This document shows, piece after piece, positions 6,678 through 34,284 of a stretch of DNA of 34,662 nucleotides. The stretch comes from an uncultured Candidatus Saccharibacteria bacterium (GTDB taxonomy: Bacteria > Patescibacteriota > Minisyncoccia > Phycocordibacterales > CAIZIN01), in NCBI GenBank assembly GCA_964525175.1, contig CAZGFB010000001.1, positions 1-34,662 on the forward strand, in the 5' to 3' direction. A program made the position numbers and the translations under genes. The notes under the pieces are model-generated. The model worked only from the letters and a program-made list of their open reading frames with translations. It did not search any database and had not been told where the DNA came from. Numbering within the stretch: the stretch's first letter is position 1; the number at the start of each line of letters is the position of its first letter.

Positions 6678-7961
6678 ATGTTTAAATTTAATTGGAAATA
6701 TAAAAAAATTACAAAGAGTGTGGGGCCGGGATTAATTACTGGCGCCGCCGATGATGATCCTTCAGGTATTGCCACATACAGCCAGACAGGAGCACAATTT
6801 GGTTATGGGCAACTTTGGACAGTTATTTTTATGTTGCCTTTAGTAACTGCGATTCAAGAAGCTTGCGCAAGAATCGGCGCCGTGACAGGAAAGGGGATAG
6901 CTACTGTTATTCGCGAGAATTATTCGAAAAAAGTTTTATACGTAGCTGTGTTTCTTGTTTTGATTGCAAATACTATAAATATTGGTGCGGATATCGGGGC
7001 GATGGCTGCCGCTGCGGGTTTAATTATTCCTCTTCCTTTTGTTCTTCTTGCGTTAGGCTTCACGACTTTAATTTTGGTTTTAGAAATTTTTGTTTCTTAC
7101 AAAAATTATGCAAAACTTCTCAAATGGTTGGCTCTTGCACTCTTCTCTTATGTGCTTACTGTGTTTATTGTAAAACAGCCATGGAGTGAAATTTTACATG
7201 CGACATTTGTCCCGCATTTTGAGTTTACTTTTGCGTTTCTTTTCATTATTACTGGAGTGTTGGGCACTACAATTTCTCCGTATATGTTTTTCTGGGAGGC
7301 TTCAGAAGAAGTTGAGGAGGAGCATAAGAAAAATATGATTCATAATGGTAAGCCTGCTTTGACAAAATCTTTTATGAAGTCGATTCGTTTGGATAATGCG
7401 ATTGGGATGATTTCCTCACAAATTGCAACATGGTGTATTATCGTTGTTTCCGCCACGGTACTGCATAACAATGGCGTCACAAATATTGCAACTGCTGCAG
7501 ACGCGGCTCGAGCACTCGAACCGCTTGTTCAAACATTTCCATATGCAGGCTTTTTAGCAAAGTTACTATTTGCTGTTGGGGTTATCGGATTGGGCTTACT
7601 TGCTGTGCCTGTACTTTCAGCTTCAGCTTCTTATGCAATTTCAGAGGCTTTTTCTTGGCGAGAAGGTTTAAACCAGAAATTTAAAAGAGCTCACGGATTT
7701 TATGGAGTTATTACCGTTGCAACTTTGATCGGGCTCATGATTAATTTTATTGGTATAGACCCTGTGCGAGCGCTTGTGATTACTGCTGTGATTAATGGAA
7801 TTATTGCTGTACCTCTTATTTTCTTAATTGCAAAAATTGCCTCAAATGAAAAAATTATGGGAGAGTATAAAAGTAGTAAGCTTTCAAGTACTCTTGTTTG
7901 GTTAACATTTTTCTTAATGGCCACCGCCGTGGTTGCGATGTTTATTGCGTTTTTGATATAA
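6678..7961 (+). CDS. NRAMP-family divalent metal cation transporter
   Basis: 427-aa polytopic protein with N-terminal GPGLITGAADDDPSGIATYSQTGAQFGYGQLW, typical of the NRAMP/MntH-related family. Confidence 0.88.
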   Translation: MFKFNWKYKKITKSVGPGLITGAADDDPSGIATYSQTGAQFGYGQLWTVIFMLPLVTAIQEACARIGAVTGKGIATVIRENYSKKVLYVAVFLVLIANTINIGADIGAMAAAAGLIIPLPFVLLALGFTTLILVLEIFVSYKNYAKLLKWLALALFSYVLTVFIVKQPWSEILHATFVPHFEFTFAFLFIITGVLGTTISPYMFFWEASEEVEEEHKKNMIHNGKPALTKSFMKSIRLDNAIGMISSQIATWCIIVVSATVLHNNGVTNIATAADAARALEPLVQTFPYAGFLAKLLFAVGVIGLGLLAVPVLSASASYAISEAFSWREGLNQKFKRAHGFYGVITVATLIGLMINFIGIDPVRALVITAVINGIIAVPLIFLIAKIASNEKIMGEYKSSKLSSTLVWLTFFLMATAVVAMFIAFLI

Positions 7962-7962
7962 A

Positions 7963-8083
7963 GAATTATGAATCGACACAAAATAAGGAGTGGAGCGACT
8001 ATATTTTGTGTCGTCTTCGCGAATGCGGGGATCCAGGTCGATTCTGATTTTTCAGACTGGATTCCGGCCTTCGCCGGAATGAC
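7963..8083. repeat. Composite hairpin repeat (AT-rich motif + H hairpin + two inverted short units)
   Basis: GAATTATGAAT; H hairpin CGACACAAAATA-N16-TATTTTGTGTCG (7974..8013); unit GTCGTCTTCGCGAATGCGGGGATCCAGGTC (8010..8039); inverted unit CTGGATTCCGGCCTTCGCCGGAATGAC (8057..8083). Confidence 0.9.
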
Positions 8084-8250
8084 AGACGACATTTTTTTGA
8101 ATTTTGAACATTTGGATTTGTTTCGGATTTCGAATTTAGATATACTGTATCGCCAAAATAGCTAGTAAATTAGCCAATATTAGGACATATTTAATATATG
8201 TGTTACACTCAAAAAGTCGTTTTAATAGAAACCTAACTATAAACAAAATT

Positions 8251-8406: not shown

Positions 8407-8416
8407 TCTTTTTTAC

Positions 8417-8452
8417 AACAAAAAACCCTTGAGCAATCGAGGGTTTTTTGTT
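8417..8452 (+). terminator. Intrinsic terminator
   Basis: AACAAAAAACCCTTGA-GCAA-TCGAGGGTTTTTTGTT. Confidence 0.8.
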
Positions 8453-8470
8453 GTCTGAATATTGTGTTCT

Positions 8471-8671
8471 GTCATTCCGGATTTAGTCCGGAATCCAGTC
8501 TCGCACTCGCATTGTCATTCTCGACCTGATCGAGAATCCATGAATTAATTTTTCAGACTGTGAAGTCGGGATAGGACCCGACTGCAAGACCGGAGGCTGA
8601 CGAGCCGAGGTGTGGCCAGAAGATTTTTCAGTAGAAAAATACTTGTGGATTCCCGTCTCTACGGGAATGAC
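8471..8671. repeat. Composite hairpin repeat (two tandem short units + inverted element B)
   Basis: GTCATTCCGGATTTAGTCCGGAATCCAG (8471..8498), linker TCTCGCACTCGCATT, GTCATTCTCGACCTGATCGAGAATCCATG (8514..8542), then the inverted copy of element B (8550..8671) ending GGGAATGAC. Confidence 0.9.
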
Positions 8672-8692
8672 AGTATAAAGAATTAAATACCA

Positions 8693-9475
8693 CTAACCAA
8701 CCAGTCCTAGATCGGTCAAAAAAACTTTTAATTCCGCTCCTTCAATTTTTCTGTAAGTTCCTTCGGCTGTTTTTCCTAAAATAATATTCATTATTCGAAC
8801 ACGTTTTAATGTATCTACTTCTTGGAAGAGTGCAACACACATTCTACGGATTTGATGTTTTTTTCCTTCGCCTAAAGTAATTCTAAAAGTATTTTCGTTT
8901 ATGATGTCTACCTTACATGGTTTTGTCATTTCGGCTTCAATTTTAACACCTACCTCCATTTTTGCTTTAAAGCTAGAACGAAGAGGGTTTTTTGTTGTAA
9001 CAATATATTCTTTATCGTGAGCGTGTTTTGGGTTGAGTAGACGGTCTGTGACACGTCCGTCGTTTGTAAGAATGAGTAAACCTGTTGAATCTTTATCAAG
9101 TCGCCCAACAGGGAACACATCTCGAATTGCTACGTTTTGTTTTATATCAACTTCTCCGTGTTGAGGTGAGTGTGTAATAATTCCACGAGGTTTATTGTAG
9201 GCTAAGTATATATATGCTTTTTGTTTTGCACTATTGTGTACTTCTACATGGTCACCTTCATTAACTTTATCTCCAAGTACTGCGCGTGCATTATTTATAA
9301 AAACTTTTCCACGTTCAACAAGCTCATCGGCGCCTCTTCGTGTAGCATAATTTTTTAAAGCGAGATATTTATTAATTCGCATAGGGTAGAGAGGGGCGCT
9401 TGGCTCTGGAGTTAAAGACGGATTAGGTCTTTGGGTTTTGGTTATTCTTAGTTTTTTGGGCTTAATGTTTTTCAT
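8693..9475 (-). CDS. Pseudouridine synthase, RsuA/RluB/RluF family
   Basis: S4-like N-terminal region (MRINKYLALKNYATRRGADELVERGKVFINN), catalytic motif PVGRLDKDSTGLLILTNDG and C-terminal GKKHQIRRMC. The true start may be the internal Met (MRINKY). Confidence 0.9.
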   Translation of the reverse strand: MKNIKPKKLRITKTQRPNPSLTPEPSAPLYPMRINKYLALKNYATRRGADELVERGKVFINNARAVLGDKVNEGDHVEVHNSAKQKAYIYLAYNKPRGIITHSPQHGEVDIKQNVAIRDVFPVGRLDKDSTGLLILTNDGRVTDRLLNPKHAHDKEYIVTTKNPLRSSFKAKMEVGVKIEAEMTKPCKVDIINENTFRITLGEGKKHQIRRMCVALFQEVDTLKRVRIMNIILGKTAEGTYRKIEGAELKVFLTDLGLVG

Positions 9476-9576: not shown

Positions 9577-9657
9577 CTGGATCCCCGATAGCCTTCCTTT
9601 CAGTCAGGCTTCGAGGACGACACAAAATATAGTCGCTTCACTCCTTATTTTGTGTCG
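9577..9657. repeat. Composite hairpin repeat (inverted long-loop unit + H hairpin)
   Basis: CTGGATCCCCGATAGCC...CGAGGACGAC, then CGACACAAAATA-N16-TATTTTGTGTCG (9618..9657). Inverted relative to the copy at 7974..8039. Confidence 0.85.
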
Positions 9658-9780
9658 ATTTTTAATTCCACCTTTTTAATCGTTGCTTTTTTAAATTTAT
9701 GTGTTATACTTAAGCAATCAGTTTTCGGAGAGATTCGACCTCTAAAAAATCTGTTTTAAATACATTCCAATCGTCTTTGT

Positions 9781-9853
9781 GTCATCCTCGTGTAGTCACG
9801 GGGATCCAAGTCCTGAATTTTCAGACTGGATTCCGGACTAAATCCGGAATGAC
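9781..9853. repeat. Composite hairpin repeat (two inverted short units)
   Basis: GTCATCCTCGTGTAGTCACGGGGATCCAAGTC + CTGAATTTTCAGA + CTGGATTCCGGACTAAATCCGGAATGAC. The second unit is the exact reverse complement of 8471..8498. Confidence 0.9.
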
Positions 9854-9916
9854 ACGCAAAAAGAACAATTGTGAAAGTTAATGTTTCAATAATAATAAAA
9901 TATAAAAATAATATAT

Positions 9917-12915: not shown

Positions 12916-13360
12916 AGTACAAATTAAATCTTTAGATAGTTCTTTGGTAATTGGATCTCTAGGTAGTCCTTCAGACAGTCTTAATGTTATTGGAGACGTT
13001 GCTTTTGACGTGAAGGCTCTCACAGATTCAGCGACCACCTTAGATTCCTTTAGTCTTCCTGTAACTATCACATATCAATATTTAAACGAAGATATTTCGG
13101 GATTTAATGAATCAACTTTGTGGATGTATCACTATCATGGCGGAGCTTGGGTTGCTCTTGATGATTGTCAAATAAGCACCAGCACAAAAACGATTTCATG
13201 TACTGCTCCAAATTTTTCAATCTTTTCGTTATTTGCAGAAAGAACTCAAGAATCAACACCGACACCACCAACACCATCAATATCGACTCCTTCTAGATCT
13301 CAAGGAACTTCTGTTCAAACCAGAGTTAAGAACTTAATTTCTATGGGAAATACTAAATCA

Positions 13361-13657
13361 GCAGATGATTTAAAGAAACAATATTCGTATCTATTTCCAA
13401 ATGAAAATCAAATAGACACAAAAGCAAAAGAGACTTCACTTTCCCCAGCGTTTAATCGAGATCTTAAATTTGGTATGACAGGAGCGGATGTTAAGAAACT
13501 TCAACAATATTTAAACAATAATGGATATGTCGTTGCTAAAACAGGAGCTGGATCTAAAGGAAAAGAGACGACAACATTTGGACCTGCAACACGCTCAGCT
13601 TTAATTAAATTTCAAAAGGCAAACAAAATTACACCAGCAATCGGATATTTTGGTCCA
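13361..13657 (+). repeat. 297-nt near-identical direct repeat (copy 1), PG-binding domain coding
   Basis: Aligns without gaps to 17625..17921 with about 5 mismatches by eye. Weaker similarity extends upstream to about 13295 / 17559. Confidence 0.9.
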
Positions 13658-16800: not shown

Positions 16801-17957
16801 TTGATGGAGCTACTGCAACAACATTAAATGACACAGGTTTAAATCCTTTGTCGACATACTATTACACACTTCAAACGACAGACAGCAACGGATTTTCAGC
16901 ACTTAGTAGTCCTGTTGAGGTTGGTCCTGCTTCAAACGACGCTACTCTTTCTGATTTAGTTATAAGTCAAGGAACTCTAAGTCCGGTATTTTCTTCAAGT
17001 ACAACTTCATACACCGTTGATGTTTTAAATGACGTCACAAGTTTGACTGTTACTCCAACTGCAAATCAGGCAAATGCAACAATCACAGTGAATGGTGAGG
17101 CCGTTAATAGTGGTGAAACATCAAGCCTAATAACATTAAATGTTGGTGACAACACTGTTTTGACGGTAACACTTGCTCAGGATGAGTCAACAACCAGAAC
17201 ATATACAATAACTGTAACAAGAGGGGCTGTAATAGTTATTCCACCAACATTAACCGTTCAAGACGCTTCATTGGTTGCAACGAGTTCCGCTGTCTTTAAT
17301 GGAACTATCACAGTTGATGGATATGCCTCTTCAACTATTGTTGGTTTTAATTATGGAACAACATTAGCATATGGTAGTACAGCTTCAACTACTGGAACAT
17401 TTGGTACAGAAACTTTCTCTAAAACAGTTACAGACCTGCTTCCAAATACTCTCTATCACTTTCAGGCTTTTGCAGAAAATAGTGCAGGGGTCGGAACATC
17501 AAGTGATGCTACAACTACCACCTCAGCACTTCCTGTATCTCCGGTACAAAGCACAACCAGATCCCAGGGTAGCTCAGTACAAAGCAGGCTTAAAAACCTA
17601 ATTTATATGGGCAAAACCCAAGCGGCAGATGATTTAAAGAAACAATATTCCTATCTATTTCCAAATGAAAATCAAATAGACACAAAAGCAAAAGAGACTT
17701 CACCTTCCCCAGCGTTTACTCGAGATCTTAAATTTGGTATGACAGGAGCGGATGTTAAGAAACTTCAACAATATTTAAACAATAATGGATATGTCGTTGC
17801 TAAAACAGGAGCTGGATCTAAAGGAAAAGAGACGACAACATTTGGACCTGCAACACGCTCAGCTTTAATTAAATTTCAAAAAGCAAACAAAATTACTCCA
17901 GCAATCGGATATTTTGGTCCAAAAACACGAGGTGTGGTGGAGAAATCTGCTTTGTAA
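13887..17957 (+). CDS. Large secreted/cell-surface multidomain protein with SGNH (GDSL) hydrolase and C-terminal peptidoglycan-binding domain
   Basis: Signal/anchor segment (VKTFVIFFVFLLFFVVRVEKIHA). About 650 aa Gly/Thr/Ser/Asn-rich repetitive region (beta-helix-like). SGNH blocks GDSITQGG (GDS at 16059..16067), GISGST, YGTNDV and DGVHPLP. FN3-like segments, a cadherin-like/Big segment (ATLSDLVISQGTLSPVFSSSTTSYTVDV) and a PG_binding_1-like C-terminus. Confidence 0.85.
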   Translation: MNEKTYISQKSVQSSNLGYERENSSRSKFKLSLVKTFVIFFVFLLFFVVRVEKIHAAQITVYATANGVKWMGTNAGWNTNPDGVSGTFYSNPQNNSTDTFIVDLNGKSGISIDTDIVVDKIQDSSATASVSLNAPRTISVLNGGIYYSGANTGGLISSSYNLTVLGTVTSAVGGKRVIITSGTASLTINAGVGNTAVLNQGTSYVINHAGSGQITVIGKVVGSTTLAAIYVTTASNQLYYNPGYDVFSDGGASAGGRSLQNTSGTIVAVGNISGTSANGSSIEMIRNDGGTFELIGNIAITGSAVRGIWNRTGAVAHVYGNVDVSGSTGASYGVWNQSVTTSNTITGNLSNPSGSPTAVAAFSSAGMVTIYGTKTGSGTVNSATYTTMATTYVSVSPASLPAGATGYLDTSITGVGTTWNGSETPTINNSVSSITAVSSGEWTTTDGTHATLPLQNSATSSFGAFSITIGTATSGPLAVFSPSHILSQTTGATSNSYNLTITGINTLWAMDIAKGNHTASNLFSASTGGTISNVLVSNDNTVTLTLATDATQRVITITDNSTNQTSAFDTNNILTYDLSPTGGNVNNYIMIEGGMRWDGGRWISTALTSGAGTALGAVRFVGKINKIDGYISQTGSAGAGNLVILNIDGENGPTYSVPYVVGGAFPNAWLTMFSGLDDTATHTYMLIWPNGEVVGNPTIGKIRTTGGTGISTTALVPRPVLAVYGDSITQGGAYESSPHNSTLYYAYLLAKKLNYQVVNLGISGSTVSSLTHGGLNPTTKNGVSRTADITSLNPKASIVLILYGTNDVTFNANQGGTPTEANFRADYASMLAGIRAGNPNALIISERILMTSRVDEATRNTWSQTDIAAAVSAQSDPKILYMHGGWDNYQDTTGSDGVHPLPSKNQDIADGMYSDIISAISTTDSIKVATTTLTSRGGTSATITSAGGIHGTAPYTYQWLRSATSSWSGFQVDGATATTLNDTGLNPLSTYYYTLQTTDSNGFSALSSPVEVGPASNDATLSDLVISQGTLSPVFSSSTTSYTVDVLNDVTSLTVTPTANQANATITVNGEAVNSGETSSLITLNVGDNTVLTVTLAQDESTTRTYTITVTRGAVIVIPPTLTVQDASLVATSSAVFNGTITVDGYASSTIVGFNYGTTLAYGSTASTTGTFGTETFSKTVTDLLPNTLYHFQAFAENSAGVGTSSDATTTTSALPVSPVQSTTRSQGSSVQSRLKNLIYMGKTQAADDLKKQYSYLFPNENQIDTKAKETSPSPAFTRDLKFGMTGADVKKLQQYLNNNGYVVAKTGAGSKGKETTTFGPATRSALIKFQKANKITPAIGYFGPKTRGVVEKSAL
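17625..17921 (+). repeat. 297-nt near-identical direct repeat (copy 2)
   Basis: See 13361..13657. Confidence 0.9.
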
Positions 17958-19237: not shown

Positions 19238-19251
19238 AGTAGCATAATGGG

Positions 19252-19337
19252 GAAGAATTATGAATTATGAATTAGGAATTATGAATGGGGAGTAAGAAAG
19301 ATGTTCGAATTTATTCTTAATTCATAATTCCTAATTC
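19252..19337. repeat. AT-rich inverted repeat (GAATTATGAATTAGGAATTATGAAT ... ATTCATAATTCCTAATTC)
   Basis: Left arm 19252..19286 and right arm 19313..19337, with about 18 bp pairing and a ~33-nt loop. Member of the family also at 20780..20887 and 31066..31144. Confidence 0.8.
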
Positions 19338-19387
19338 TATTCTAAAATTTCTTCCAAATTTTGGAATTTAGTGTATACTGTCTTCAT

Positions 19388-20229: not shown

Positions 20230-20793
20230 ATGCTTCTCAATCCAAAAATTCAAAAAGCAATTTATGTTGCTACGCATCAACATCGCCATCAAGAAAGAAA
20301 AGTGAGTGGAATGCCATATATTGTACATCCTTTTTCTGTTGCCTGGCTTTTGTCAGAGCAAACAAAAGATGAAGATATTATTGTAGCGGGCTTGCTTCAT
20401 GACGTGCTCGAGGATACAGACGGCTATGATTACAATGATATTGTGAGAGATTTTGGAGAAAGAGTTGCCGAAATTGTTTCCGAGGTAACAGAATTTAAAG
20501 ATTTGCCTTGGCATGAAAGAAAAGAGAAGTATATTAAAGTCTTTGAAAATTCATCACAAGAATCTTTGATGGTTGCAACAGCGGATAAGATTCATAATTT
20601 ATCTTCACTTTATGAGGAGATTTTGGAGACAGGAGAGAATCCCTTTGGTACTAAGTTTAAATCATATGATGAGTCAAAATGGTTTTATGAATCTGTATAC
20701 GAGGTGATGGAAAGAAGACTAGGGAATAAAATCCTTTTGGCAGAATTTAAGGAGATGTTGGAGTTGGTTTTTAAGGGTAGAATTAAGAATTAG
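20230..20793 (+). CDS. HD-domain protein, RelA/SpoT-type (p)ppGpp-hydrolase-like (small alarmone hydrolase-like)
   Basis: YIVHPFSVAWLL...GLLHDVLEDT...ATADKIHNL pattern of the HD_4/SpoT hydrolase domain. The ATG is 1 nt after the cupin gene stop. Confidence 0.8.
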   Translation: MLLNPKIQKAIYVATHQHRHQERKVSGMPYIVHPFSVAWLLSEQTKDEDIIVAGLLHDVLEDTDGYDYNDIVRDFGERVAEIVSEVTEFKDLPWHERKEKYIKVFENSSQESLMVATADKIHNLSSLYEEILETGENPFGTKFKSYDESKWFYESVYEVMERRLGNKILLAEFKEMLELVFKGRIKN

Positions 20794-20887
20794 GAATTAT
20801 GAATTATGGAAATACCGGGGCCGAATGGTCCGGCATTTTATAGTATTCTTAATCTATTCTTAATTCCTAATTCATAATTCTTAATTC
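20780..20887. repeat. AT-rich inverted repeat of the GAATTAAGAATTAGGAATTATGAAT family
   Basis: Left arm 20780..20809 overlaps the HD-gene stop codon; right arm 20845..20887. The loop contains a small GC hairpin (GCCG-AATGGTC-CGGC). Confidence 0.8.
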
Positions 20888-20952
20888 TGTTACGATTGAA
20901 TTTATGCTGTTTTTCGTGTATTATGAAATTATTATAAGTAACTTATAAAAAC

Positions 20953-21552
20953 ATGGACACAACAAAAAGAACCCCAATATCTATTTTAAAATGGTCTCTC
21001 ATTATCGGGATTGTAATAGTTCTCAATCTTTTCTATAACTACACACTCTCCCTTGTCTTTTCTGCTCCAGAATATAATACATATTGTGAACAAAAGCAGG
21101 TAAATATTTCTCCAGATACTCAAGAAAAATGTGTTGCTGAAGGCGGTGCCTGGACTCAATATCCCGCAAATGCGAATCCAAAACTAATCAACCAACCTGT
21201 TATTGTTGATCCAAACAACAACACTAACGTACTTGGTTATTGCGACCAGACATTTTCATGTAGTCAAAAATTTGAAGACGCAAGTAAAAAATACGACAGA
21301 AATGTTTTCATCACCCTTGTCGTTCTTGGCGTACTCACTTTTGTTGCCAGTTTGTTTTTTGTGAATTTTGAAATTGTTTCTGTTGCGCTTTCGATTGGTG
21401 CAGTGCTTGATTTTGTAATTGCTTCCATTCGTTATTGGGCAAGAGCAGATGATTTGATCAAAGTTTTAATTCTCGGTGTTGCTCTCGCTGTACTTATTTG
21501 GGTGGCAATTAAAAAATTTAACATCAAAGCTGAAAATGAACCCCGCGTCTAA
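20953..21552 (+). CDS. Hypothetical membrane protein (199 aa)
   Basis: N-terminal TM segment (WSLIIGIVIVLNLFYNY), a Cys-containing extracytoplasmic segment and three C-terminal TM segments. Overlaps the leuS start by 17 nt. Confidence 0.6.
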   Translation: MDTTKRTPISILKWSLIIGIVIVLNLFYNYTLSLVFSAPEYNTYCEQKQVNISPDTQEKCVAEGGAWTQYPANANPKLINQPVIVDPNNNTNVLGYCDQTFSCSQKFEDASKKYDRNVFITLVVLGVLTFVASLFFVNFEIVSVALSIGAVLDFVIASIRYWARADDLIKVLILGVALAVLIWVAIKKFNIKAENEPRV

Positions 21553-24500
21553 AGATTACGATCATAAAGAAATAGAGCCAAAGTGGCAAAAAGAATGGGA
21601 AGAGAAAGGCGCATTTAAAGCCTCGATTGACCTCTCTAAGCCTAAAAAATACGTACTCGATATGTTCCCGTATCCTTCGGGTGCGGGGCTTCATGTGGGG
21701 CATCCTCGTGGCTATATTGCCTCTGATGTTTATGCACGCTTGATGCGAACGAAAGGTTTTAACATTCTTCACCCGATGGGTTTTGACTCTTTTGGTTTGC
21801 CCGCAGAACAATATGCAATCAAAACAGGCAACAATCCAAAAATTTTTACAGATGAACTTGTAAAACAATATCGAAAACAATTAGACATAATTGGTTTTAG
21901 TTATGATTGGGAAAGACAAATAGCGACTCACAGACCTGAATACTACAAATGGACACAGTGGATTTTTTTGAAGCTATATGGATCTTGGTATAACAAAGCT
22001 CACGATAAAGCGGAAGCGATTGAAACTCTGGAAGCTATTTTTGAAAAAGATGGAAATGAAAATGTAAATGCAATTTGTGATTCTGATACAAAAATTGTAA
22101 CCGCTTCTGAGTGGAAAGAAATGGACACTTTAGCGAAACATCAATTATTGATGAAGTATCGATTGGCCTACGAAGGGATGAGCTCGGTAAACTGGTGCCA
22201 AGAGCTTGGAACAGTGCTCGCCAACGATGAAATTGTGGACGGTCCAGACGGCGCGCCTGTTTCAGAGCGTGGAGGCTTTCCTGTTGAGAAAAAAACTTTA
22301 AGACAATGGTTTTTAAGAATTACAGCTTATGCCGACAGATTGTTAAGTGGATTAGAAACAATTGATTGGCCTTCGCATATAAAAGAAATTCAAAAGAATT
22401 GGATAGGGAAATCTGAGGGTACTCAGATTAAATTTAAAATTAAAAATGAAAAATTTAAAATTGAGGCAGAAAAAGAAATAAATCTACCCAACCCTGTGTC
22501 ATCCTCGGGTACTCCCGGGGATCCAAGTCTGGATTCTTCTGTAGAAGTCTTCACAACCCGAGTAGATACTCTTTTTGGCGTCACCTATGTTGTTATTGCA
22601 CCAGAACATGAATTAGTACAAAAACTTTTAGAGTCTGTTTCAAACAAGGAGGAAGTTTTGAAATATATTGAAGAAGTAAAAAATAAAACAGCAGAAGATC
22701 GCACTGCTGAAAATAAAGAAAAAACAGGTGTGCCACTTAAAGGTGTAACAGCCGTAAATCCTGCAAATGGAGAAGAGGTGCCTGTGTGGATTGCTGATTA
22801 TGTTTTGGCTTCATACGGTACAGGTGCAGTGATGGCAGTGCCAGCTCACGATGATCGAGATTTTGCTTTTGCGAAGAAGTATGGATTGGAGATTAAGGAG
22901 GTTGTTATTTCAGAGAGGATTGATAAGAGAAATCCTCCAGTTGCCAATAAAGAAAAAGTTGAAAGAAAAAATGTTCAAGCGGTGGTATTTGATCCTAAAA
23001 CTGAGAAATATTTGTGTTTACATTCTATTAAACATCTGTGGAATACTTTTCCAATGGGTGGAGTGAACGACGGGGAAGATTTAATTGAAGCAGCTAAAAG
23101 AGAAGTTTTAGAAGAGACCGGATATAAAAATTTGATAAAAGGTAAAATTCTTGGAGGTTCCGTACGCGCTGAATATTTTGCTAAACATAAAGATCAAAAT
23201 AGAGTTTCATTCACAAATTTAGTTTATTTTGAATTAGATGGGTATAGTCAGGATGAAATTTCAGAAGAAGAAAAAGGAGAGAATGAAATATTATGGGTAG
23301 ATAAAGGCAACTTGAATTGTGATTTTATGTGTCATGCGGAAATGGATGTGTGGCTTGAGAGATTAAACAATGCTGAAGGTTCATACAACGATGACGGTGT
23401 GCTTGTAAATTCTCAAAAATTCGACAGCCTTTCTTCCGAAGAAGCACGAAAAGAAATTACGAAAGCTGTGGGTGGAAAATTTGTTACAAAATATAAAATG
23501 CGAGATGCTGTGTTTGCAAGACAAAGATATTGGGGAGAGCCGATTCCAATTATTCACGAAAAAGACGGAACGATAAAGGCTCTTTCTCCAAAAGATTTAC
23601 CGCTAGAACTTCCAGATGTTAAATCTTATGCTCCAACAGGTAATGCAGAATCTCCACTTTCAGCCGTTGAGGATTGGATGGAAAAAGGTTATGAAACAAA
23701 TACAATGCCGGGCTGGGCGGGTTCATCTTGGTACTTCCTACGATATATGGATCCTAAAAATGAAAATGCTTTTGCGAGTGAAGAAGCGTTAAAATATTGG
23801 GGGCAGGTAGATATGTATGTGGGAGGAGCTGAGCACGCAACAGGGCATCTTTTGTATTCAAGATTTTGGAATAAGTTCTTACACGATTTGAATCTTGTGC
23901 CAAATGAAGAACCTTTCAAAGTTCTTCGAAATCAAGGAATGATTCTCGGTGCCGATCATAAAAAAATGTCAAAAAGATGGGGGAATGTTGTTAATCCTGA
24001 TGATGTAGTAAATACATTTGGTGCAGATACACTTCGAGTTTTTGAAATGTTCATCGGGCCATTTGATTCACAACTTCCTTGGTCCACAGATGGTATAATT
24101 GGTTCAAGAAGATTTATTGAAAAAGTTTGGCGACTTCAGTATAAGGTTGTAGAAGATAACGGCGACCCTTCAAACTTTTTGCCATTACATCATTTGGATA
24201 CAAATGATGCAGAAAAGAATCAGACGGCAAAAACTTTTAAGGGCAAGTATCCTTACGAGCAAAGTCTCCATAAAACTATAAAAAAAGTTGGAGAGGATAT
24301 TGAATCATTTAATTTCAACACAGCAATTTCAGCAATGATGATTTGTTTGAATGAAATGGAAAAATCTGATAAAGTTTACAAAGAAGATTTCGAAAAATTT
24401 CTACAAATTCTTTCTCCATTTGCCCCACACATTACAGAAGAGATTTGGAGCACACTCGGTAAAGAGAAAATATTACAGGATTCTGGCTGGCCGGAATTTG

Positions 24501-24721
24501 ATGAAAGTAAGCTTACAAGTGAGACTGTAACAATGGTGGTACAGGTCAATGGAAAGGTTCGTGGGGAGCTAATTGTGCCTACAAATGTGGATGAAAATAC
24601 CGCATTAGAATTAGCAAAAAATTCTGAACAAGTCGCAAAATGGCTTGAAAAAGCTGAAATTATCAAGGTCGTTTTTGTCCCGGGTAGACTTGTCAACATT
24701 GTTGTCAAGGTTTCCCCTTGA
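21536..24721 (+). CDS. leuS: Leucine--tRNA ligase with extra in-frame insertions (repeat-derived peptide; Nudix domain)
   Basis: HIGH motif ([14 protein letters not shown]), editing domain ([44 protein letters not shown]), [10 protein letters not shown], KMSKS as KMSKRWGN and the C-terminal VQVNGKVRG domain. ATG 21536 ([21 protein letters not shown]) is preferred over GTG 21476. Confidence 0.95.
   Translation: [1061 protein letters not shown]
22498..22529. repeat. Short hairpin repeat unit inside the leuS coding sequence
   Basis: GTCATCCTCGGGTACTCCCGGGGATCCAAGTC followed by TGGATTC. Differs by one loop base from the intergenic unit at 32063..32093. Translated in frame as [14 protein letters not shown]. 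Confidence 0.9.
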
Positions 24722-29120: not shown

Positions 29121-29152
29121 CAAAAATGCTATTGTTTACGATAGCATTTTTG
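29121..29152. promoter_or_regulatory. Palindrome S1 (CAAAAATGCTAT-TGTTTACG-ATAGCATTTTTG); also a plausible mltG terminator
   Basis: 12-bp arms with a T-run after the hairpin. The core TGCTATTGTTTACGATAGCA recurs at 29216, 29703 (inverted) and 29748 (inverted). Confidence 0.6.
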
Positions 29153-29215
29153 ATATTTTATAAAATTTATATATACAAATATATAAATATAATATATATA
29201 TATTACTACCTAGGA

Positions 29216-29235
29216 TGCTATTGTTTACAATAGCA
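29216..29235. promoter_or_regulatory. Palindrome S2 (TGCTATTG-TTTA-CAATAGCA), candidate operator of the TrpR-like gene
   Basis: Perfect 8-bp arms. It overlaps the -35 position of the TATAAT at 29253..29258, which sits 6 nt before ATG 29265. Confidence 0.55.
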
Positions 29236-29264
29236 AATATTTTTTATTGGTTTATAATTATTCT

Positions 29265-29684
29265 ATGAAGAATCTCACTAATATTAGGATTGACAAAAAT
29301 GTTTATAATAAAATATATGGTCAATTTGTTTCCTCGTTGATTTGTCTGGATAATAAGGAAAAGAGTATATTATTTGTGAATGAATTATTTACTGAATCCG
29401 AAAAAATGATGCTAGCAAAAAGATTGGCTATCATAATAATGCTTAAAGAAGGATTATCAAACCGCGTAATCAGTAATTCTCTCAATGTTAGTCCCGCCAC
29501 TGTTACAAGAGCTTCTGTCGCTCTAAAAAGGAATTCATATAACATTATTGATGATTTCTTTGGGGATAAAGAAACAAGAAGAAAGATAATCAAAAAGATT
29601 CTGATTTTAAGACACGAACTTTTACCAACTCGGCCTAGAGGGGCCAGTTTTGAATACTTACGAAATAATAAGTATCCAAAATAG
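29265..29684 (+). CDS. TrpR-like (YerC/YecD family) HTH regulator
   Basis: LFTESEKMMLAKRLAIIIMLKEGLSNRVISNSLNVSPATVTRASVALK matches the Trp-repressor-like helix pattern. ATG 29265 is preferred over TTG 29247. Confidence 0.7.
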   Translation: MKNLTNIRIDKNVYNKIYGQFVSSLICLDNKEKSILFVNELFTESEKMMLAKRLAIIIMLKEGLSNRVISNSLNVSPATVTRASVALKRNSYNIIDDFFGDKETRRKIIKKILILRHELLPTRPRGASFEYLRNNKYPK

Positions 29685-29702
29685 AATCTGTGAATATAAA
29701 TA

Positions 29703-29724
29703 ATGCTATCGTAAACAATAGCAT
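29703..29724. promoter_or_regulatory. Palindrome S3 (exact reverse complement of the S1 core)
   Basis: ATGCTATCGTAAACAATAGCAT, 19 nt after the TrpR-like stop codon. Confidence 0.55.
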
Positions 29725-29747
29725 ATTAGAATTCATCATCTGGTGAA

Positions 29748-29767
29748 TGCTATCGTAAACAATAGCA
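29748..29767. promoter_or_regulatory. Palindrome S4
   Basis: TGCTATCGTAAACAATAGCA. Confidence 0.55.
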
Positions 29768-29890
29768 AATTTTAGAATGGAGATAAGAGAAATAAAGGGG
29801 CCTAATTAAAGTGTTTTGGATTTAGGACAAAATAACAAATAATGAACCGCTTTAGCTTTTGGTTAAATTTATGTTATAACTATTGGATTA

Positions 29891-31066
29891 ATGCAGAATT
29901 TAAAAGGTAAAAAGATATATGTTGGTCTTTCTGGTGGAGTGGATAGCTCTGTGGCTGCGGCTCTTTTGCTGGAAGCTGGCGCTCTCGTGACGGGAGTCTT
30001 TATAAAAGGCTGGTATCCGGAATTTTTGAAATGTGACTGGAAGGAAGAGAGGCGAGATGCGATGCGTGTGGCTGCACATTTAGGAATACCATTTTTGACT
30101 TGTGATGCGGAAGAGGCATATAAAAAGAATGTGATTGATTATATGATTTCTGAATATAAAGCAGGGCGAACTCCTAACCCAGATGTGATGTGTAATAAGT
30201 ATGTAAAATTTGGAACATTCTTTGATTTTGCTATGGAGCGTGGTGCGGATTTTGTGGCGACAGGGCACTACGCTCGCTCCGCTCGAATTAAAAATGAAAA
30301 ATTGACACAAAACAACGAGCGAAGCGACTATGTTTTGTGTCATCCTCGCGAATGCGGGGATCCAGGTTCGGATTCGGATGCTCAGCTATTGAAAGGGGAG
30401 GATGGGAATAAGGATCAGAGTTATTTCTTGTGGGCAGTATCAAAAGATCAATTAGAAAAAACTCTTTTCCCGATTGGAGAAATTGATAAATCTGAAGTTA
30501 GAAAAATTGCTAGAAAATATAAACTTTTTACTGGTGAAAAAAAAGACAGCCAAGGTTTATGTTTTCTTGGTAAGGTTGATTTGGATGAATTTTTATCTCA
30601 TTATATTCCAAAAAATAAAGGAGATGTCTTAAATAAAGACGGTGAAGTAATTGGCCATCATGACGGTGTGCATCTATACACATTGGGAGAAAGACATGGA
30701 TTTACTGTCACAAAAAAAGGCATAGAAGATAAGCCGAACTATATTGTTGCAAAGGACATAGAAAAAAACACACTTACCGTCTCTGATTCAATTATCGAGA
30801 TTCAAAAAACCTCCTGCTCTGGTGTTATTCTTCGTGAGGTGAATTGGATCATAAAACCGGAGTTAAATAAAGAATATATGTGTCGAGTTAGATATCGACA
30901 ACCACTTTTTCGATGCTCGGTTCATCGTGAGGCTAAGCCTCACGATGTAGAAGGTTGTATTGTGAATTTTGTGAACAAACAAGATTTTGTATCAACTGGC
31001 CAATCTCTGGTTTTGTATGACGGGGATATTTGTTTGGGAGGAGGAATAATTGAGGGTAGAATATAG
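29891..31066 (+). CDS. mnmA: tRNA-specific 2-thiouridylase MnmA with in-frame repeat insertion
   Basis: PP-loop VGLSGGVDSSVAA, EYKAGRTPNPDVMCNKYVKF, ATGHYAR, KDQSYFL, KKDSQGLCFLG and C-terminal GQSLVLYDGDICLGGGII. Confidence 0.93.
   Translation: MQNLKGKKIYVGLSGGVDSSVAAALLLEAGALVTGVFIKGWYPEFLKCDWKEERRDAMRVAAHLGIPFLTCDAEEAYKKNVIDYMISEYKAGRTPNPDVMCNKYVKFGTFFDFAMERGADFVATGHYARSARIKNEKLTQNNERSDYVLCHPRECGDPGSDSDAQLLKGEDGNKDQSYFLWAVSKDQLEKTLFPIGEIDKSEVRKIARKYKLFTGEKKDSQGLCFLGKVDLDEFLSHYIPKNKGDVLNKDGEVIGHHDGVHLYTLGERHGFTVTKKGIEDKPNYIVAKDIEKNTLTVSDSIIEIQKTSCSGVILREVNWIIKPELNKEYMCRVRYRQPLFRCSVHREAKPHDVEGCIVNFVNKQDFVSTGQSLVLYDGDICLGGGIIEGRI
30304..30367. repeat. H hairpin + short hairpin unit inside the mnmA coding sequence
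   Basis: GACACAAAACA-N16-TGTTTTGTGTC (30304..30341) and GTCATCCTCGCGAATGCGGGGATCCAGGT (30339..30367). Homologous to the intergenic composite at 7974..8039. Translated as ...TQNNERSDYVLCHPRECGDPG... Confidence 0.9.
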
Positions 31067-31144
31067 AATTATGAATTAAGAATTATGAATTCATTAAGAG
31101 GCGTGCTTCTGTTTTGTCCATTCTTAATTCCTAATTCCTAATTC
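31066..31144. repeat. AT-rich inverted repeat of the GAATTATGAATTAAGAATT family
   Basis: Left arm 31066..31094 begins at the last base of the mnmA stop codon. Right arm 31120..31144 ends 6 nt before TATAAT at 31151..31156. Confidence 0.8.
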
Positions 31145-31162
31145 TTGAAGTATAATACTTCT

Positions 31163-32002
31163 ATGACCCCAGAAACATACATCAAAAAATCGTCAGGCGT
31201 ACTAGAATTGTTTAACAAAGCTAAGCTCATTGACTCCCTAGAAAAAGCGGGAGCCTCAATGTTTGTTGCAGAAGATGTCGCAAACAAAATTGAAGAAAAA
31301 TTAAAAGAAGGAATGCCTACCTCAATGATTTATTCTCAATCATTCAAACTTCTCCGTAAAAAGGAAAGTCGACCAGCTATTCGATATTCACTTCGCCGAT
31401 CGATCGCAGATTTAGGTCCAACAGGATTTCCGTTTGAAGATTTTATTGGGGAAATATTTAGAGAGAAAGGTTTTAATATTATAAATGACTTAATGGTGCA
31501 AGGAAAATGTATTGAGCATGAAATAGATATTGTTGCACATAATGAAGACCATTTAATAATGACAGAAATTAAATTTCATAATCAGCTCATGCTAAAGTCT
31601 GATGTGAAAGTTGCTTTATATATCAAGGCTCGTTTTGATGACTTAGAAGGTGTTGATTTTGTAATTGATGGAAAGAAAAGAAAGATGACACAAGGTTTAC
31701 TTTTGACTAATACAAAATTTACTGAACATGCTATTAAATTTGGTGCTTGTGCGGGTGTAAATATGATCGGTTGGAACTACCCTGCAAAAGGTAATTTGCA
31801 CGATCTTATTGAAGAGACAGGTCTTCATCCACTAACATGCCTCACTACACTTTCAGGAAGAGAGAAAAAAGTGCTTTTGGAAAAAGAGATTGTTACATGT
31901 AAAGCTCTTAAATTGAAGAAAGAAGTTTTGATTGAAATGCAATTGTCGGAGGGTAGAGTAGCTAGGGTGTTGAAGGAGATAGAAGAAGTCGCATCGTTTT
32001 AA
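31163..32002 (+). CDS. ATP-cone domain + PD-(D/E)xK (Mrr-like restriction endonuclease fold) protein
   Basis: The N-terminus IKKSSGVLELFNKAKLIDSLEKAGASMFVAEDVANKIEEKLKEGMPTSMIY resembles an ATP-cone. The central FEDFIGEIFREKGF...HEIDIVAH...IMTEIKFH gives a D...E-x-K nuclease motif. ATG 31163 preferred. Confidence 0.7.
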   Translation: MTPETYIKKSSGVLELFNKAKLIDSLEKAGASMFVAEDVANKIEEKLKEGMPTSMIYSQSFKLLRKKESRPAIRYSLRRSIADLGPTGFPFEDFIGEIFREKGFNIINDLMVQGKCIEHEIDIVAHNEDHLIMTEIKFHNQLMLKSDVKVALYIKARFDDLEGVDFVIDGKKRKMTQGLLLTNTKFTEHAIKFGACAGVNMIGWNYPAKGNLHDLIEETGLHPLTCLTTLSGREKKVLLEKEIVTCKALKLKKEVLIEMQLSEGRVARVLKEIEEVASF

Positions 32003-32062: not shown

Positions 32063-32264
32063 GTCATCCTCGGGTAATCCCGGGGATCCAAGTTTGAATT
32101 CAGAATTTTCAGACTGGATTCCTGCCTTACAGGCACTGTACACTTTTCGCTTTTTGAATACAAAATGCTCAAAGTCTTGCGCTTGGGTCCCGCCCCAAGC
32201 TCACCTCCGCAGGAATGACAAGCGGGCTCAGACTTGGATCCCCGCTGAGTACAGCGAGGATGAC
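32063..32264. repeat. Full-length composite hairpin element (short unit + long-loop unit containing element A + inverted short unit)
   Basis: Left end GTCATCCTCGGGTAATCCCGGGGATCCAAGT (32063..32093). Right end is the inverted unit ACTTGGATCCCCGCTGAGTACAGCGAGGATGAC (32232..32264). The interior CTGGATTCCTGC...GCAGGAATGAC encloses the ~81-nt element A (32139..32219). Confidence 0.9.
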
Positions 32265-34162: not shown

Positions 34163-34172
34163 ATACGCATTT

Positions 34173-34284
34173 GTCATTCCGGCGAAGGCCGGAATCCAGT
34201 CTCGCATCCTCTGTCATTCTTATGTACTCATGGGAATCCAAGTTAATCCGCATTGTCATCTTCGAGTACTCTCGGAGATCCAAG
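34173..34284 (+). repeat. Tandem array of three short hairpin repeat units
   Basis: GTCATTCCGGCGAAGGCCGGAATCCAG (34173..34199), GTCATTCTTATGTACTCATGGGAATCCAAG (34213..34242) and GTCATCTTCGAGTACTCTCGGAGATCCAAG (34255..34284), with 12-13-nt linkers. Confidence 0.9.

What the first reader, a model, noticed from the sequence alone, without database searches (positions are those of the whole stretch)
30287..30378. Two-hairpin repeat module inserted in frame in mnmA, with compensatory stem changes
Between ATGHYAR and LLKGEDGNKDQSYFL, E. coli MnmA has about 9 residues (from memory) and this ORF has 36: SARIKNEKLTQNNERSDYVLCHPRECGDPGSDSDAQ. The DNA holds the H hairpin GACACAAAACA-N16-TGTTTTGTGTC (30304..30341) fused to the unit GTCATCCTCGCGAATGCGGGGATCCAGGT (30339..30367). 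This is the same arrangement as the intergenic composite at 7974..8039. Relative to the intergenic copies (CGACACAAAATA/TATTTTGTGTCG), the coding copy has T->C on one arm matched by A->G on the other, and C-G replaced by T-A at the stem end. The hairpin is therefore preserved even inside a CDS. This points either to recent insertion from a diverged master copy or to selection on the nucleic-acid structure.
Basis: partly seen in the sequence, partly recalled or inferred. Interest (0 to 1): 0.7.

Follow-up and report, generated by a model that had tools for sequence, protein, structure and literature searches.

The report
Palindromic repeats translated inside mnmA
A tRNA-modification gene of a tiny uncultured (Patescibacteria) bacterium carries two hairpin-forming junk-DNA repeats in frame in a floppy surface loop; this is known from Rickettsia, but one of the two hairpins belongs to a widespread family that seems undescribed.

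Summary
The mnmA ORF (29891-31066) is intact. Its loop between HYAR and LLKG carries a 40-nt hairpin "H" (30303-30342) fused to a 27-nt hairpin unit (30338-30364). The same composite occurs in intergenic DNA at 7974-8035 and 9578-9657.

The unit meets the defining features of CGTC-tagged REP elements: TGTC tag, 8-bp stem starting AT, 4-nt loop and CCA tail. This is the family of Rickettsia RPE-4 and RPE-6, which are known to sit in frame in genes.

H belongs to a family found in many Patescibacteria lineages (plus one DPANN archaeal IS200-like element). Its 16-nt tip is conserved and both of its helices covary. I found no Rfam family or paper describing it.

The compensatory changes hold up: 19 compensated changes against 4 unpaired ones among 10 arm haplotypes. 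However, the mnmA haplotype is identical to copies elsewhere, so it was inherited rather than evolved in situ.

The insert lies at the tip of a beta-hairpin and is the only segment with pLDDT below 50. This loop ranges from 7 to 42 aa among 120 homologues. Relatives carry nothing, a REP alone, or other palindromes at the same place.

Verdict: a mosaic of selfish palindromic repeats tolerated in a permissive loop. It is a new variant of a known phenomenon, with a probably new hairpin family attached.

The parts
29891..31066 (+). mnmA CDS (tRNA 2-thiouridine synthase), intact, 391 aa
   Evidence: ORF list. PDB MnmA hits at E about 1e-83. PP-loop SGGVDSS and Cys101/Cys224 are invariant in the orthologue alignment.
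30278..30385 (+). Repeat-derived hypervariable loop (aa 130-165) at the tip of a beta-hairpin
   Evidence: The loop is 5 aa in L145 and 36 aa here. It is 7-42 aa in 120 homologues. The only AlphaFold segment with pLDDT below 50 is aa 135-160, between strands 128-133 and 163-168.
30287..30302 (+). AT-rich 16-mer ATTAAAAATGAAAAAT (IKNEK); it pre-exists in orthologues that lack H and is the left flank of the composite
   Evidence: Shared with L001 and L144. The identical 16-mer lies in the leuS insert at 22438-22453.
30303..30342 (+). H hairpin: 5' arm 30303-30314, conserved tip 30315-30330 (ACGAGCGAAGCGACTA, containing the GC-GAA-GC mini-helix), 3' arm 30331-30342
   Evidence: Sequence. CM hit at 55 bits, E 2e-11. 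Predicted fold.
30338..30364 (+). CGTC-class REP: tag TGTC 30338-41, stem ATCCTCGC 30342-49, loop GAAT 30350-53, stem GCGGGGAT 30354-61 (one T.G pair), tail CCA 30362-64
   Evidence: Strict REP scan. Family definition from PMC3733652.
30365..30381 (+). REP 3' extension GGTTCGGATTCGGATGC (G-SDSDA), collinear with the tail that follows the REP in orthologues
   Evidence: Alignment with L142, L143 and L144. Similar tails (CCARGTYYTGAATT) follow intergenic REPs.
7958..8036 (+). Intergenic composite 1, just after the stop of ORF 6678-7961: AT-rich flank, H 7974-8013, REP 8009-8035
   Evidence: (family D5, 84% over 81 nt).
9578..9657 (-). Intergenic composite 2: H 9618-9657 and a REP 9578-9621 whose loop holds a further small hairpin
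   Evidence: (I2, I3).
22497..22525 (+). Second in-frame REP of the same family, in leuS (PVSSSGTPGDPSLDSS), read in a different frame from the mnmA copy
   Evidence: LeuRS comparison with orthologue L001 shows the extra residues. REP scan. Sequence.

Best explanation
The extra 27-31 residues of MnmA are translated selfish DNA. A permissive loop at the tip of a surface beta-hairpin has accumulated a mosaic of three dispersed repeat types:
- an AT-rich piece;
- the conserved-tip hairpin H;
- a CGTC-class REP with its tail.

These pieces are non-autonomous: no transposase is present in the window. They have no terminal inverted repeats and cause no target duplication, and they sit next to A-rich sequence.

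**Shown.**
- The composite is multi-copy.
- It is absent from, or different at, the orthologous site in relatives.
- It is in frame and free of stop codons.
- It lies in a disordered loop of an otherwise intact enzyme.
- Its stem complementarity is a property of the whole family and was inherited from a source copy.

**Inferred.**
- The copies spread either as single-stranded DNA hairpins handled by an HUH/Y1-type transposase supplied in trans (as proposed for REP/RAYT and IS200/IS605 derivatives), or by ectopic recombination between the flanking repeats already in the loop (AT-rich piece on the left, REP on the right).
- Only insertions whose length is a multiple of three and which lack stop codons survive in an essential gene.
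- The hairpins are kept because copies that cannot fold are not propagated, not because mnmA needs them.
- The mRNA must carry two stable hairpins, and the ribosome reads through them.
For: **The repeat families are real.**
- There are three H copies and 15 strict REPs in 34.6 kb, against 0-1 REPs in shuffles.
- The REP meets the published CGTC definition, and that family is documented inside genes, including tRNA synthetase and tRNA-modification genes.
- The window has a second in-frame REP in leuS.

**Presence/absence at the orthologous site.**
- The site is empty in L145, holds a perfect REP alone in L143, a decayed REP in L142, only the AT-rich piece in L144, and an unrelated 20-bp palindrome in L001.
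- Removing 30303-30365 (63 nt) restores GAAAAATGT as in L001 and L144, with no duplication.

**The loop tolerates insertions.**
- The loop is 7-42 aa and non-conserved in 120 homologues.
- AlphaFold gives mean pLDDT 85.8, and only aa 135-160 fall below 50.
- Catalytic motifs are invariant.

**Structure is a family property.**
- H stem covariation is 0.488 against 0.19 for shuffles.
- There are 19 compensated against 4 unpaired changes, and the mnmA haplotype is identical in L123 and L133.
- The tip mini-helix also covaries.
- REP stems are 89% paired against 69 +/- 1.6% when partners are shuffled.

**Link to a Y1 transposase.**
- An H hairpin with the same tip lies about 30 nt after the tnpA stop, inside the right end of an IS200-like element. 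It is seen in nine loci spanning about four distinct flanking contexts.
Against: - No transposase is encoded in the window (tblastn).
- A related IS200 family (P0236) lacks H. H may therefore simply have landed downstream of tnpA, as it does downstream of many genes.
- The order of events in mnmA is unresolved. Against L142 and L143 the difference is 54 nt (AT-rich piece, 5' arm and tip); against L001 and L144 it is H plus REP. Either way, at least two events or a recombination are needed.
- Translation of the insert, and activity of the enzyme, are inferred and not shown.
- The H tip is conserved across very distant lineages. That is unusual for purely selfish DNA and leaves room for a host function.
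Confidence: 0.75

Rival explanations
1. H (and perhaps the H+REP pair) is a host-functional structured element rather than selfish DNA. It would be an RNA or DNA motif bound by a conserved factor and acting at gene boundaries (3'-end formation or stabilisation, tRNA trailer processing, translational control). On this view the mnmA copy is a stray.
For: - The 16-nt tip is conserved in Saccharibacteria, Paceibacteria, Taylor-, Nomura-, Campbell- and Kaiserbacteria, while both helices covary.
- The 5' side of H abuts ORF stops on the same strand (18 cases within 15 nt) or ORF starts on the opposite strand (15 cases within 3 nt).
- H directly follows tRNA 3' ends in at least 6 loci.
- The tip has tandem G.A pairs next to a small helix, a common type of protein-binding motif.
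Against: - H occurs in both orientations relative to the adjacent gene.
- The long stem is almost purely Watson-Crick, with no excess of G.T (24) over A.C (30), unlike typical RNA families.
- Copies within a genome are near-identical and sit in unrelated contexts. They are nested in REP loops (L014) and carried by an IS.
- No Rfam family matches.
Confidence: 0.2
2. The hairpins are maintained by selection acting on the mnmA mRNA itself, for example as a pause site, a stability element or a regulatory element for this gene.
For: Both hairpins are intact and very stable in the sense strand (-28.9 kcal/mol, z = -3.6). The REP's T.G pair would be a G.U pair in the mRNA.
Against: - The exact haplotype exists outside mnmA.
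- Close orthologues have no H, a decayed REP, or different palindromes.
- H inside a long ORF is unique among about 80 H copies.
- A search for the peptide found no other large protein carrying it among 5.8 billion proteins, only 8 short ORFs.
Confidence: 0.05
3. The insert is an adaptive protein extension: a new functional peptide on MnmA.
For: The gene is intact, and the loop is expanded in most Patescibacteria homologues.
Against: The loop sequences are unrelated between lineages and often low-complexity or repeat-derived. The segment is predicted to be disordered. The same DNA occurs in non-coding regions.
Confidence: 0.04
4. The finding is an artefact or a dead gene: either a mis-assembly across a repeat, or mnmA is a pseudogene.
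For: Repeats can cause chimeric joins in metagenome assemblies. The protein is known from one cluster with two contig records.
Against: - The ORF is uninterrupted, and both flanks are collinear with orthologues in conserved synteny.
- Relatives assembled independently carry a REP at the same codon position.
- All catalytic motifs are kept.
Confidence: 0.03
5. The segment is removed before or during translation, as an intron-like element or by translational bypassing over the hairpins.
For: Stable hairpins sit at the site.
Against: - The segment is in frame and free of stop codons.
- The tip variant GAGCGAAGC avoids the TGA that the GAGTGAAGC variant (9.6-kb copy) would place in this frame.
- There is no Rfam intron match here.
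- REPs in orthologues and in leuS are also in frame.
Confidence: 0.03

Closest known systems
CGTC-tagged REP superfamily (Di Nocera et al. 2013, PMC3733652), which includes Rickettsia conorii RPE-4 and RPE-6 and Neisseria dRS3
   Same: The unit has the published anatomy: a CGTC/TGTC tag, an 8-9 bp stem beginning A-T, a 4-5 nt loop, a CCA tail and G.T pairs in the stem. It is multi-copy and mostly intergenic and close to ORF ends, with some copies in frame in genes, including tRNA synthetase and tRNA-modification genes. No dedicated transposase is known for the family.
   Different: The host phylum (Patescibacteria) is not among the five phyla listed in that paper. Tail-to-tail and head-to-tail pairs are seen here rather than the predominant head-to-head dimers. 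In the composite, the tag is base-paired with the H 5' arm. I had no RPE or dRS3 sequences to test sequence relatedness.
Rickettsia palindromic elements (RPE-1; Ogata et al. 2000, cited from my own knowledge and through PMC3733652)
   Same: These are palindromic repeats inserted in frame in essential genes. They are translated and thought to lie on protein surfaces without destroying function.
   Different: RPE-1 is a single element of 100-150 bp. Here the insert is a mosaic of short modules (16-mer, 40-nt H, 27-nt REP) that accumulated at one hypervariable loop, and different lineages carry different palindromes at that loop.
REP/RAYT systems and IS200/IS605 elements with their palindrome-associated derivatives (PATE)
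   Same: There are no terminal inverted repeats and no target duplication. Hairpins occupy both ends of the 63-nt module. The left flank is consistently A-rich. An H hairpin with the same tip forms part of the right end of an IS200-like element that encodes a Y1 transposase.
   Different: There is no GTAG tag. No Y1 gene is present in the window or near the other H copies sampled. The left end of that IS has no H-like hairpin, and a sister IS family lacks H, so recognition of H by the transposase is not shown.
DDE-type MITEs (for example Neisseria Correia elements)
   Same: They are short, non-autonomous, dispersed, sometimes intragenic, and able to fold.
   Different: MITEs are defined by terminal inverted repeats and target-site duplications. 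Neither is present here.

Membership tests
CGTC-tagged REP superfamily | Terminal tetranucleotide tag CGTC (often TGTC or CCTC) at the head | tested here: met
   TGTC at 30338-30341, and TGTC in all 15 strict copies in the window. In the composite the tag pairs with GACA of the H arm.
CGTC-tagged REP superfamily | Stem of 8-9 bp with A-T residues in the first and second positions | tested here: met
   ATCCTCGC/GCGGGGAT, 8 bp with one T.G pair.
CGTC-tagged REP superfamily | Loop of 4-5 nt | tested here: met
   GAAT here. Other copies have GAAG, TTTAG, CCTGA, AGAG, TACT.
CGTC-tagged REP superfamily | Short unpaired 3' tail, consensus CCA | tested here: met
   CCA at 30362-30364 and in all 15 strict copies.
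CGTC-tagged REP superfamily | Dispersed multi-copy family whose stems covary and carry G.T pairs | tested here: met
   43 distinct inner sequences were anchored on the flanks only. They are 89% paired against 69% when shuffled, with 23 T.G against 10 C.A pairs.
CGTC-tagged REP superfamily | Predominantly head-to-head dimers | tested here: not met
   The window shows tail-to-tail pairs (8009-8084, 9780-9854) and head-to-tail pairs (8470/8513, 34172-34282). This is a tendency in the paper, not a strict criterion.
Rickettsia palindromic elements (RPE) | In-frame insertion in a conserved gene, absent from orthologues, at a surface position | tested here: met
Rickettsia palindromic elements (RPE) | Sequence similarity to RPE-1..RPE-8 consensus sequences | not tested
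Only the structural class (CGTC-1 = RPE-6, CGTC-4 = RPE-4) could be compared, through PMC3733652.
DDE-type MITE | Terminal inverted repeats plus a target-site duplication | tested here: not met
   The ends TGACAC... and ...ATCCAG are not inverted copies of each other. The flanks GAAAAAT / GTTCGG show no duplication, and the same holds for the other copies.
IS200/IS605-derived element or REP-RAYT system | No TIR or TSD, subterminal hairpins, insertion next to a fixed short target | tested here: inconclusive
   The hairpins and the lack of TIR/TSD are met. The left flank is A-rich (AAAW) in all 16 composite contexts, but no fixed tetranucleotide could be defined.
IS200/IS605-derived element or REP-RAYT system | A cognate Y1 (HUH) transposase that recognises the hairpin | tested here: inconclusive
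   None is present in the window or in the Patescibacteria loci sampled. H lies inside the right end of a DPANN IS200-like element in 9 loci but is absent from a sister family.
REP-RAYT system | GTAG tag at the head of the palindrome | tested here: not met
   There is no GTAG at either hairpin.
Any Rfam RNA family | Match to a curated covariance model | tested here: not met
   No hits at gathering score in the window or in 17 H-bearing loci apart from tRNAs and one group I intron elsewhere. At E up to 10, H gave only noise.

The most novel reading that the evidence does not exclude
The H hairpin may be a previously undescribed structured element found in many Patescibacteria lineages. It has a fixed internal loop (5' AAGGA / 3' GACUA, with tandem G.A pairs) flanked by two helices that are free to change sequence. 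It sits with its 5' side exactly at gene boundaries: stop codons, start codons (antisense, between a GGGTG Shine-Dalgarno-like box and the ATG of rpsJ, rpmE, rpmI, nusB, secE, yebC and others), and tRNA 3' ends. It may be either the recognition hairpin of an unrecognised HUH-transposase/REP-like system shared by CPR bacteria and DPANN archaea, or a host motif bound by a conserved protein that controls RNA ends or translation. On this reading the mnmA copy is simply the rare case that landed in frame.
Probability: 0.3. Interest if true: 0.8.

Novelty: new variant of a known kind. Interest (0 to 1): 0.6.

Why it matters
In-frame palindromic repeats have mostly been documented in Rickettsia and some Proteobacteria. 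Finding the same phenomenon in the reduced genomes of Patescibacteria has several implications.
- It occurs in mnmA, in leuS and, judging from loop lengths, in MnmA of many lineages. This suggests that selfish hairpin repeats are a general source of protein-loop expansion even in streamlined genomes.
- It gives a simple explanation for some of the odd insertions seen in CPR proteins.
- It warns annotators that 'CHPRECGDP'-type peptides are repeat-derived.

The H family is potentially the more important result. It is a hairpin with a conserved tip, covarying stems and precise placement at gene boundaries, and it is shared with a DPANN IS element. It could be either a new mobile-element recognition structure or a new regulatory motif. 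It is directly testable with existing metatranscriptomes and with the few cultivated Saccharibacteria.

Tried and rejected
- **Rfam.** The gathering-score scan of the whole window, the E<=10 scan of 7900-8700 and the scan of 17 H-bearing loci gave nothing for H or the REP.
- **Literature.**
  - The tip sequence gave one irrelevant hit.
  - REP-derived peptides gave no hits.
  - Among the papers listed for CPR terms plus MITE/REP terms, none mentions MITEs or REPs.
- **Viral contigs.** A scan with the tip motif gave 72 hits. None had flanking stems; they are coding-sequence coincidences, for example ...NERSDY in a conserved phage gene. This served as a negative control.
- **Peptide search.** The H+REP peptide found only 8 short ORFs among 5.8 billion proteins and no other large protein.
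- **RNA versus DNA.** A test of G.T against A.C mismatches in the long H stem showed no asymmetry (24 vs 30), so it does not support an RNA-only structure.
- **K-turn reading of the tip.** Rejected on inspection. The three unpaired nucleotides lie 3' of the GA on the wrong strand, and with N14 = G the tip is a near-continuous helix with one bulged A.
- **Promoter or intrinsic-terminator reading of H.** There is no consistent -35 box or spacing and no trailing U-tract across subfamilies. This was judged by eye only; the promoter/terminator scan tool was not run.
- **tRNA-intron or variable-arm reading.** Some H copies (L019, L088, L097, L101, L103) lie in tRNA-like surroundings, but ARAGORN and Rfam call no tRNA across them, so this is left open.
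- **Y1 transposases.** The sister IS family P0236 has no H.
- **Two-hairpin architecture.** A second hairpin directly 3' of H is only moderately general: 49% of cases against 32% on the 5' side, p = 0.013.
- **History of the locus.** I could not settle it. The 63-nt excision and the 54-nt insertion are both consistent with the alignments.
Full report
**1. The observation**

The window is a low-GC (about 36%) contig of a Patescibacteria (Paceibacteria-like) bacterium.
- ORF 29891-31066 encodes a complete MnmA. PDB MnmA chains match at E about 1e-83. The PP-loop SGGVDSS and both catalytic cysteines are invariant in an alignment of 30 orthologues.
- HMMER splits the match to solved structures exactly at the finding. 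Query residues 135-160 have no counterpart, falling between chain residues 138 and 139 of 9hlv.
  - H is TGACACAAAACA - ACGAGCGAAGCGACTA - TGTTTTGTGTCA (30303-30342);
  - it overlaps the unit TGTC-ATCCTCGC-GAAT-GCGGGGAT-CCA (30338-30364).
- The same order of parts occurs at 7958-8036 on the plus strand (84% identity over 81 nt) and at 9578-9657 on the minus strand.
- The 92 nt fold into both hairpins, with z = -3.6 as RNA and -3.5 as DNA.

**2. What the unit is**

The unit fits the published definition of CGTC-tagged REPs point by point (PMC3733652):
- a tag CGTC, often TGTC;
- an 8-9 bp stem whose first two residues are A-T;
- a 4-5 nt loop;
- a CCA tail;
- G.T pairs in the stem.

Supporting counts:
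- A strict scan finds 15 such elements in the window, against 0-1 in shuffled sequence.
- Anchoring only on the flanks gave 43 distinct copies from the window and relatives. Their stems are 89% paired, against 69 +/- 1.6% with shuffled partners. T.G pairs on the tag strand (23) outnumber the reciprocal C.A (10).

[quoted passage not shown] The paper also reports CGTC and GTAG REPs lying in frame in genes, among them tRNA synthetase and pseudouridine synthase genes.

The window has a second case. leuS carries a REP in frame at 22497-22525, read in a different frame (PVSSSGTPGDPSLDSS), and this REP is absent from the orthologue in L001.

**3. What H is**

I scanned one genome per GTDB species with the tip alone (AANGAGYGRAGCGACTAT), so that the arms were not constrained.

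*A family with covarying stems:*
- The scan returned more than 118 hits, mostly in Saccharibacteria, Paceibacteria and Taylor-, Nomura-, Campbell- and Kaiserbacteria.
- In 76 of 124 hits the flanks form a stem of at least 4 bp, usually 7-13 bp. Only 3 of 121 controls with displaced flanks do so.
- The stem sequences differ completely between subfamilies, for example GCCCGATTTAT/ATAAATCGGG, GGCTGATTTTT/AAAAATCGCC and CCGCAAAAC/GTTTTGCG.
- On the ungapped alignment of all 123 hits, chance hits included, the covariation score is 0.488. Shuffles give 0.19 (0 of 500 reach the observed value) and slid partners give 0.13-0.29.
- Diverged copies found with a covariance model show that the small helix inside the tip also covaries:
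  - G-C changes to A-T;
  - C-G changes to T-A;
  - the helix lengthens to TCCAC/GTGGA, GAC/GTC, CAC/GTG or TGG/CCA.
- The flanking AAGGA and GACTA stay fixed throughout.
- H is therefore a long hairpin with a conserved internal loop (tandem G.A) and two sequence-free helices.

*Specificity and prior description:*
- The same tip motif in IMG/VR viral contigs never has stems (0 of 72). This serves as a negative control.
- I found no Rfam family and no paper containing the sequence.

*DNA or RNA:*
- The long stem is almost purely Watson-Crick and shows no excess of G.T (24) over A.C (30).
- H occurs in both orientations relative to neighbouring genes.
- I therefore cannot say that it acts as RNA.

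**4. The compensatory changes**

I scanned metagenome contigs for the tip followed, 11 nt later, by the REP head (TCYYCG). Both arms were again left free.
- Sixteen of the 20 matches are H+REP composites.
- Together with the local copies they give 10 distinct hairpin haplotypes, with 19 compensated double changes, 4 unpaired single changes, 2 wobbles and 1 unpaired double change.
- The mnmA haplotype, with the same REP, is identical in L123 and L133, which lie in other contexts. The paired differences therefore came in with the copy.

**5. The site in the protein**

AlphaFold, run with the 30-sequence alignment, gives mean pLDDT 85.8 and pTM 0.84. The only segment below 50 is residues 135-160, a coil between strands 128-133 and 163-168.

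Among the 120 best homologues this loop ranges from 7 to 42 residues, with unrelated and often repeat-like sequences.

In syntenic orthologues the DNA of the loop varies as follows:
- L145: 15 nt, with no repeat.
- L143: a perfect REP alone (TGTC-ATTCCCGC-GAAG-GCGGGAAT-CCA).
- L142: a decayed REP.
- L144: only the AT-rich piece.
- L001: the AT-rich piece plus an unrelated 20-bp palindrome.
- L146: a different repeat.

The site is a sink for palindromic repeats.

**6. How the copy got there**

Two comparisons are both clean.
- Against L001 and L144, removing 30303-30365 (63 nt, 21 codons) restores GAA AAA TGT, with no target duplication.
- Against L142 and L143, the REP, its 5' flank GTTTTNTGTCAT (which here forms the H 3' arm) and the tail are collinear and in the same frame. 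The window has 54 extra nt: the AT-rich piece, the H 5' arm and the tip.

The locus is therefore a mosaic that needed at least two events.

Sequence features bearing on the mechanism:
- All 16 composite contexts have an A-rich left flank. In three window or relative copies this flank is GAATTAWRAAT-like.
- The same 16-mer ATTAAAAATGAAAAAT precedes the leuS REP insert.

Two routes fit these facts: transposition of hairpin DNA next to A-rich targets, or ectopic recombination between repeats that already flank the site.

Reading frames within the module:
- Frame 0 is open.
- The arm's TGA is out of frame here, whereas in many other copies it serves as the stop codon of the upstream ORF.
- The tip variant GAGCGAAGC avoids the in-frame TGA that the GAGTGAAGC variant carries.

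**7. Link to a transposase**

A tblastn search with Y1 transposases found none in the window. It did find one next to H in L033, a Pacearchaeota contig. That ORF is an IS200-like Y1_Tnp (Pfam E = 1e-25).
- Eight further loci encode a 91%-identical TnpA. Together with L033 they span about four different flanking contexts.
- All eight carry H at the same place, about 30 nt after the stop codon and inside the conserved right end of the element. That end terminates in ...GGATGTCA.
- A sister family (68% identical TnpA) has no H.

This shows that H can be part of, and travel with, an IS200/IS605-type element shared by DPANN archaea. It does not prove that the transposase recognises H, because H also sits after the stop codons of many ordinary genes.

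**8. Comparison with known systems, and verdict**

The phenomenon works like the Rickettsia RPEs and the intragenic REPs of Di Nocera et al. The unit is a member of the CGTC REP class by every structural criterion tested. The exception is the tendency to form head-to-head dimers.

It is not a DDE-type MITE, since it has no TIR and no TSD. It has no GTAG tag. Dependence on a Y1 transposase is unproven.

What is new:
- the host lineage: none of the papers listed for CPR search terms mentions REPs or MITEs;
- the stepwise mosaic at a single hypervariable loop;
- above all, the H family.

I rate the finding itself as a new variant of a known kind, with interest 0.6. The best explanation, selfish palindromic repeats tolerated and translated in a permissive loop with stem complementarity inherited as a family property, has confidence about 0.75.

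Noticed in passing
window 22415-22545 and about 24164-24250 (leuS, about 21536-24721): LeuRS has an in-frame CGTC-REP (22497-22525), preceded by the same 16-mer ATTAAAAATGAAAAAT as in mnmA. It also has a second 27-aa insert with no obvious hairpin. LeuRS of this clade carries a NUDIX domain inside the protein, according to the precomputed Pfam lists.
   Followed up: partly
L011, L015, L021, L030, L040, L047, L071, L072, L080, L093, L104-L107, L112, L116 (coordinates): In 16 loci of other Patescibacteria, H lies antisense exactly between a GGGTG Shine-Dalgarno-like box and the ATG of real genes (rpmE, rpsJ, rpmI, nusB, secE, yebC, parB, a lysS-like gene and others). The base of the stem pairs the SD-like box with the start-codon region.
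   Followed up: partly
L006:633-672, L036:4863-4902, L037:5510-5549, L070:858-897, L098:3206-3245, L100:5900-5939: H begins within a few nucleotides of the 3' end of tRNA genes, so that the tRNA's last bases form the outer part of the 5' arm. L006 has three tandem tip motifs with a period of 62 nt.
   Followed up: partly
L019:6190-6400, L088:29-267, L101:2140-2340, L097:5040-5150, L103:3140-3300: Some H copies are embedded in tRNA-like sequence (T-arm or D-arm motifs on one side), but ARAGORN and Rfam call no tRNA across them. These may be disrupted tRNA genes or unannotated RNAs.
   Followed up: partly
L014:5700-5800; window 9578-9621: Nested insertions occur. In L014 a whole H element sits in the loop of a REP (TGTCATTCTGAAC[...]GATTCAGAATCCA), next to an intact copy of that REP. 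In the window, the REP at 9578-9621 has a further small hairpin in its loop.
   Followed up: no
L033:2380-3060; L219-L226: An IS200-like element of DPANN archaea (Y1_Tnp) has sharply defined ends (ATACGCTTGCG... to ...GGGAGGATGTCA). Its right end contains an H hairpin with the same 18-nt tip as the Patescibacteria copies.
   Followed up: yes
window 3894-3933, 19246-19363, 20771-20895, 31050-31166: Heptamer-type AT-rich repeats (NGAATTA)n occur, often as inverted pairs just after genes. The last codons and the stop codon of mnmA (GGIIEGRI*) lie in one of them.
   Followed up: no
window 29125-29150, 29214-29239, 29702-29727, 29746-29771: Four copies of the palindrome AATGCTATCGTAAACAATAGCATT flank the Trp_repressor-family ORF 29247-29684. 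They look like operator sites.
   Followed up: no
window 1-84 and 32139-32220; 13295-13594 and 17559-17858: The first 58 nt of the window recur at 32139-32196 (95% identity). This belongs to a longer REP-like variant, TGTCATTCC(C/T)GCG(A/G)AGGTGAGCTTGGGG. A 300-nt direct duplication (93% identity) lies in and near the 1356-aa ORF.
   Followed up: no
L008, L020, L027, L049, L058, L084, L094 (Bacteroidaceae MAGs): The same 18-nt tip motif recurs in rumen Bacteroidaceae, without stems. It is embedded in direct repeats (TATCTCCC ... CTCCCTTTA), which is unexplained.
   Followed up: no
L001:10440-10500 (mnmA of the closest relative): A different perfect palindrome, CAGAGTTAACAAACTC-AGCGATAGCA-GAGTTTGTTAACTCTG, is translated as SELTNSAIAEFVNSES in the same MnmA loop. 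Related peptides occur in P0004, P0005 and P0008.
   Followed up: partly
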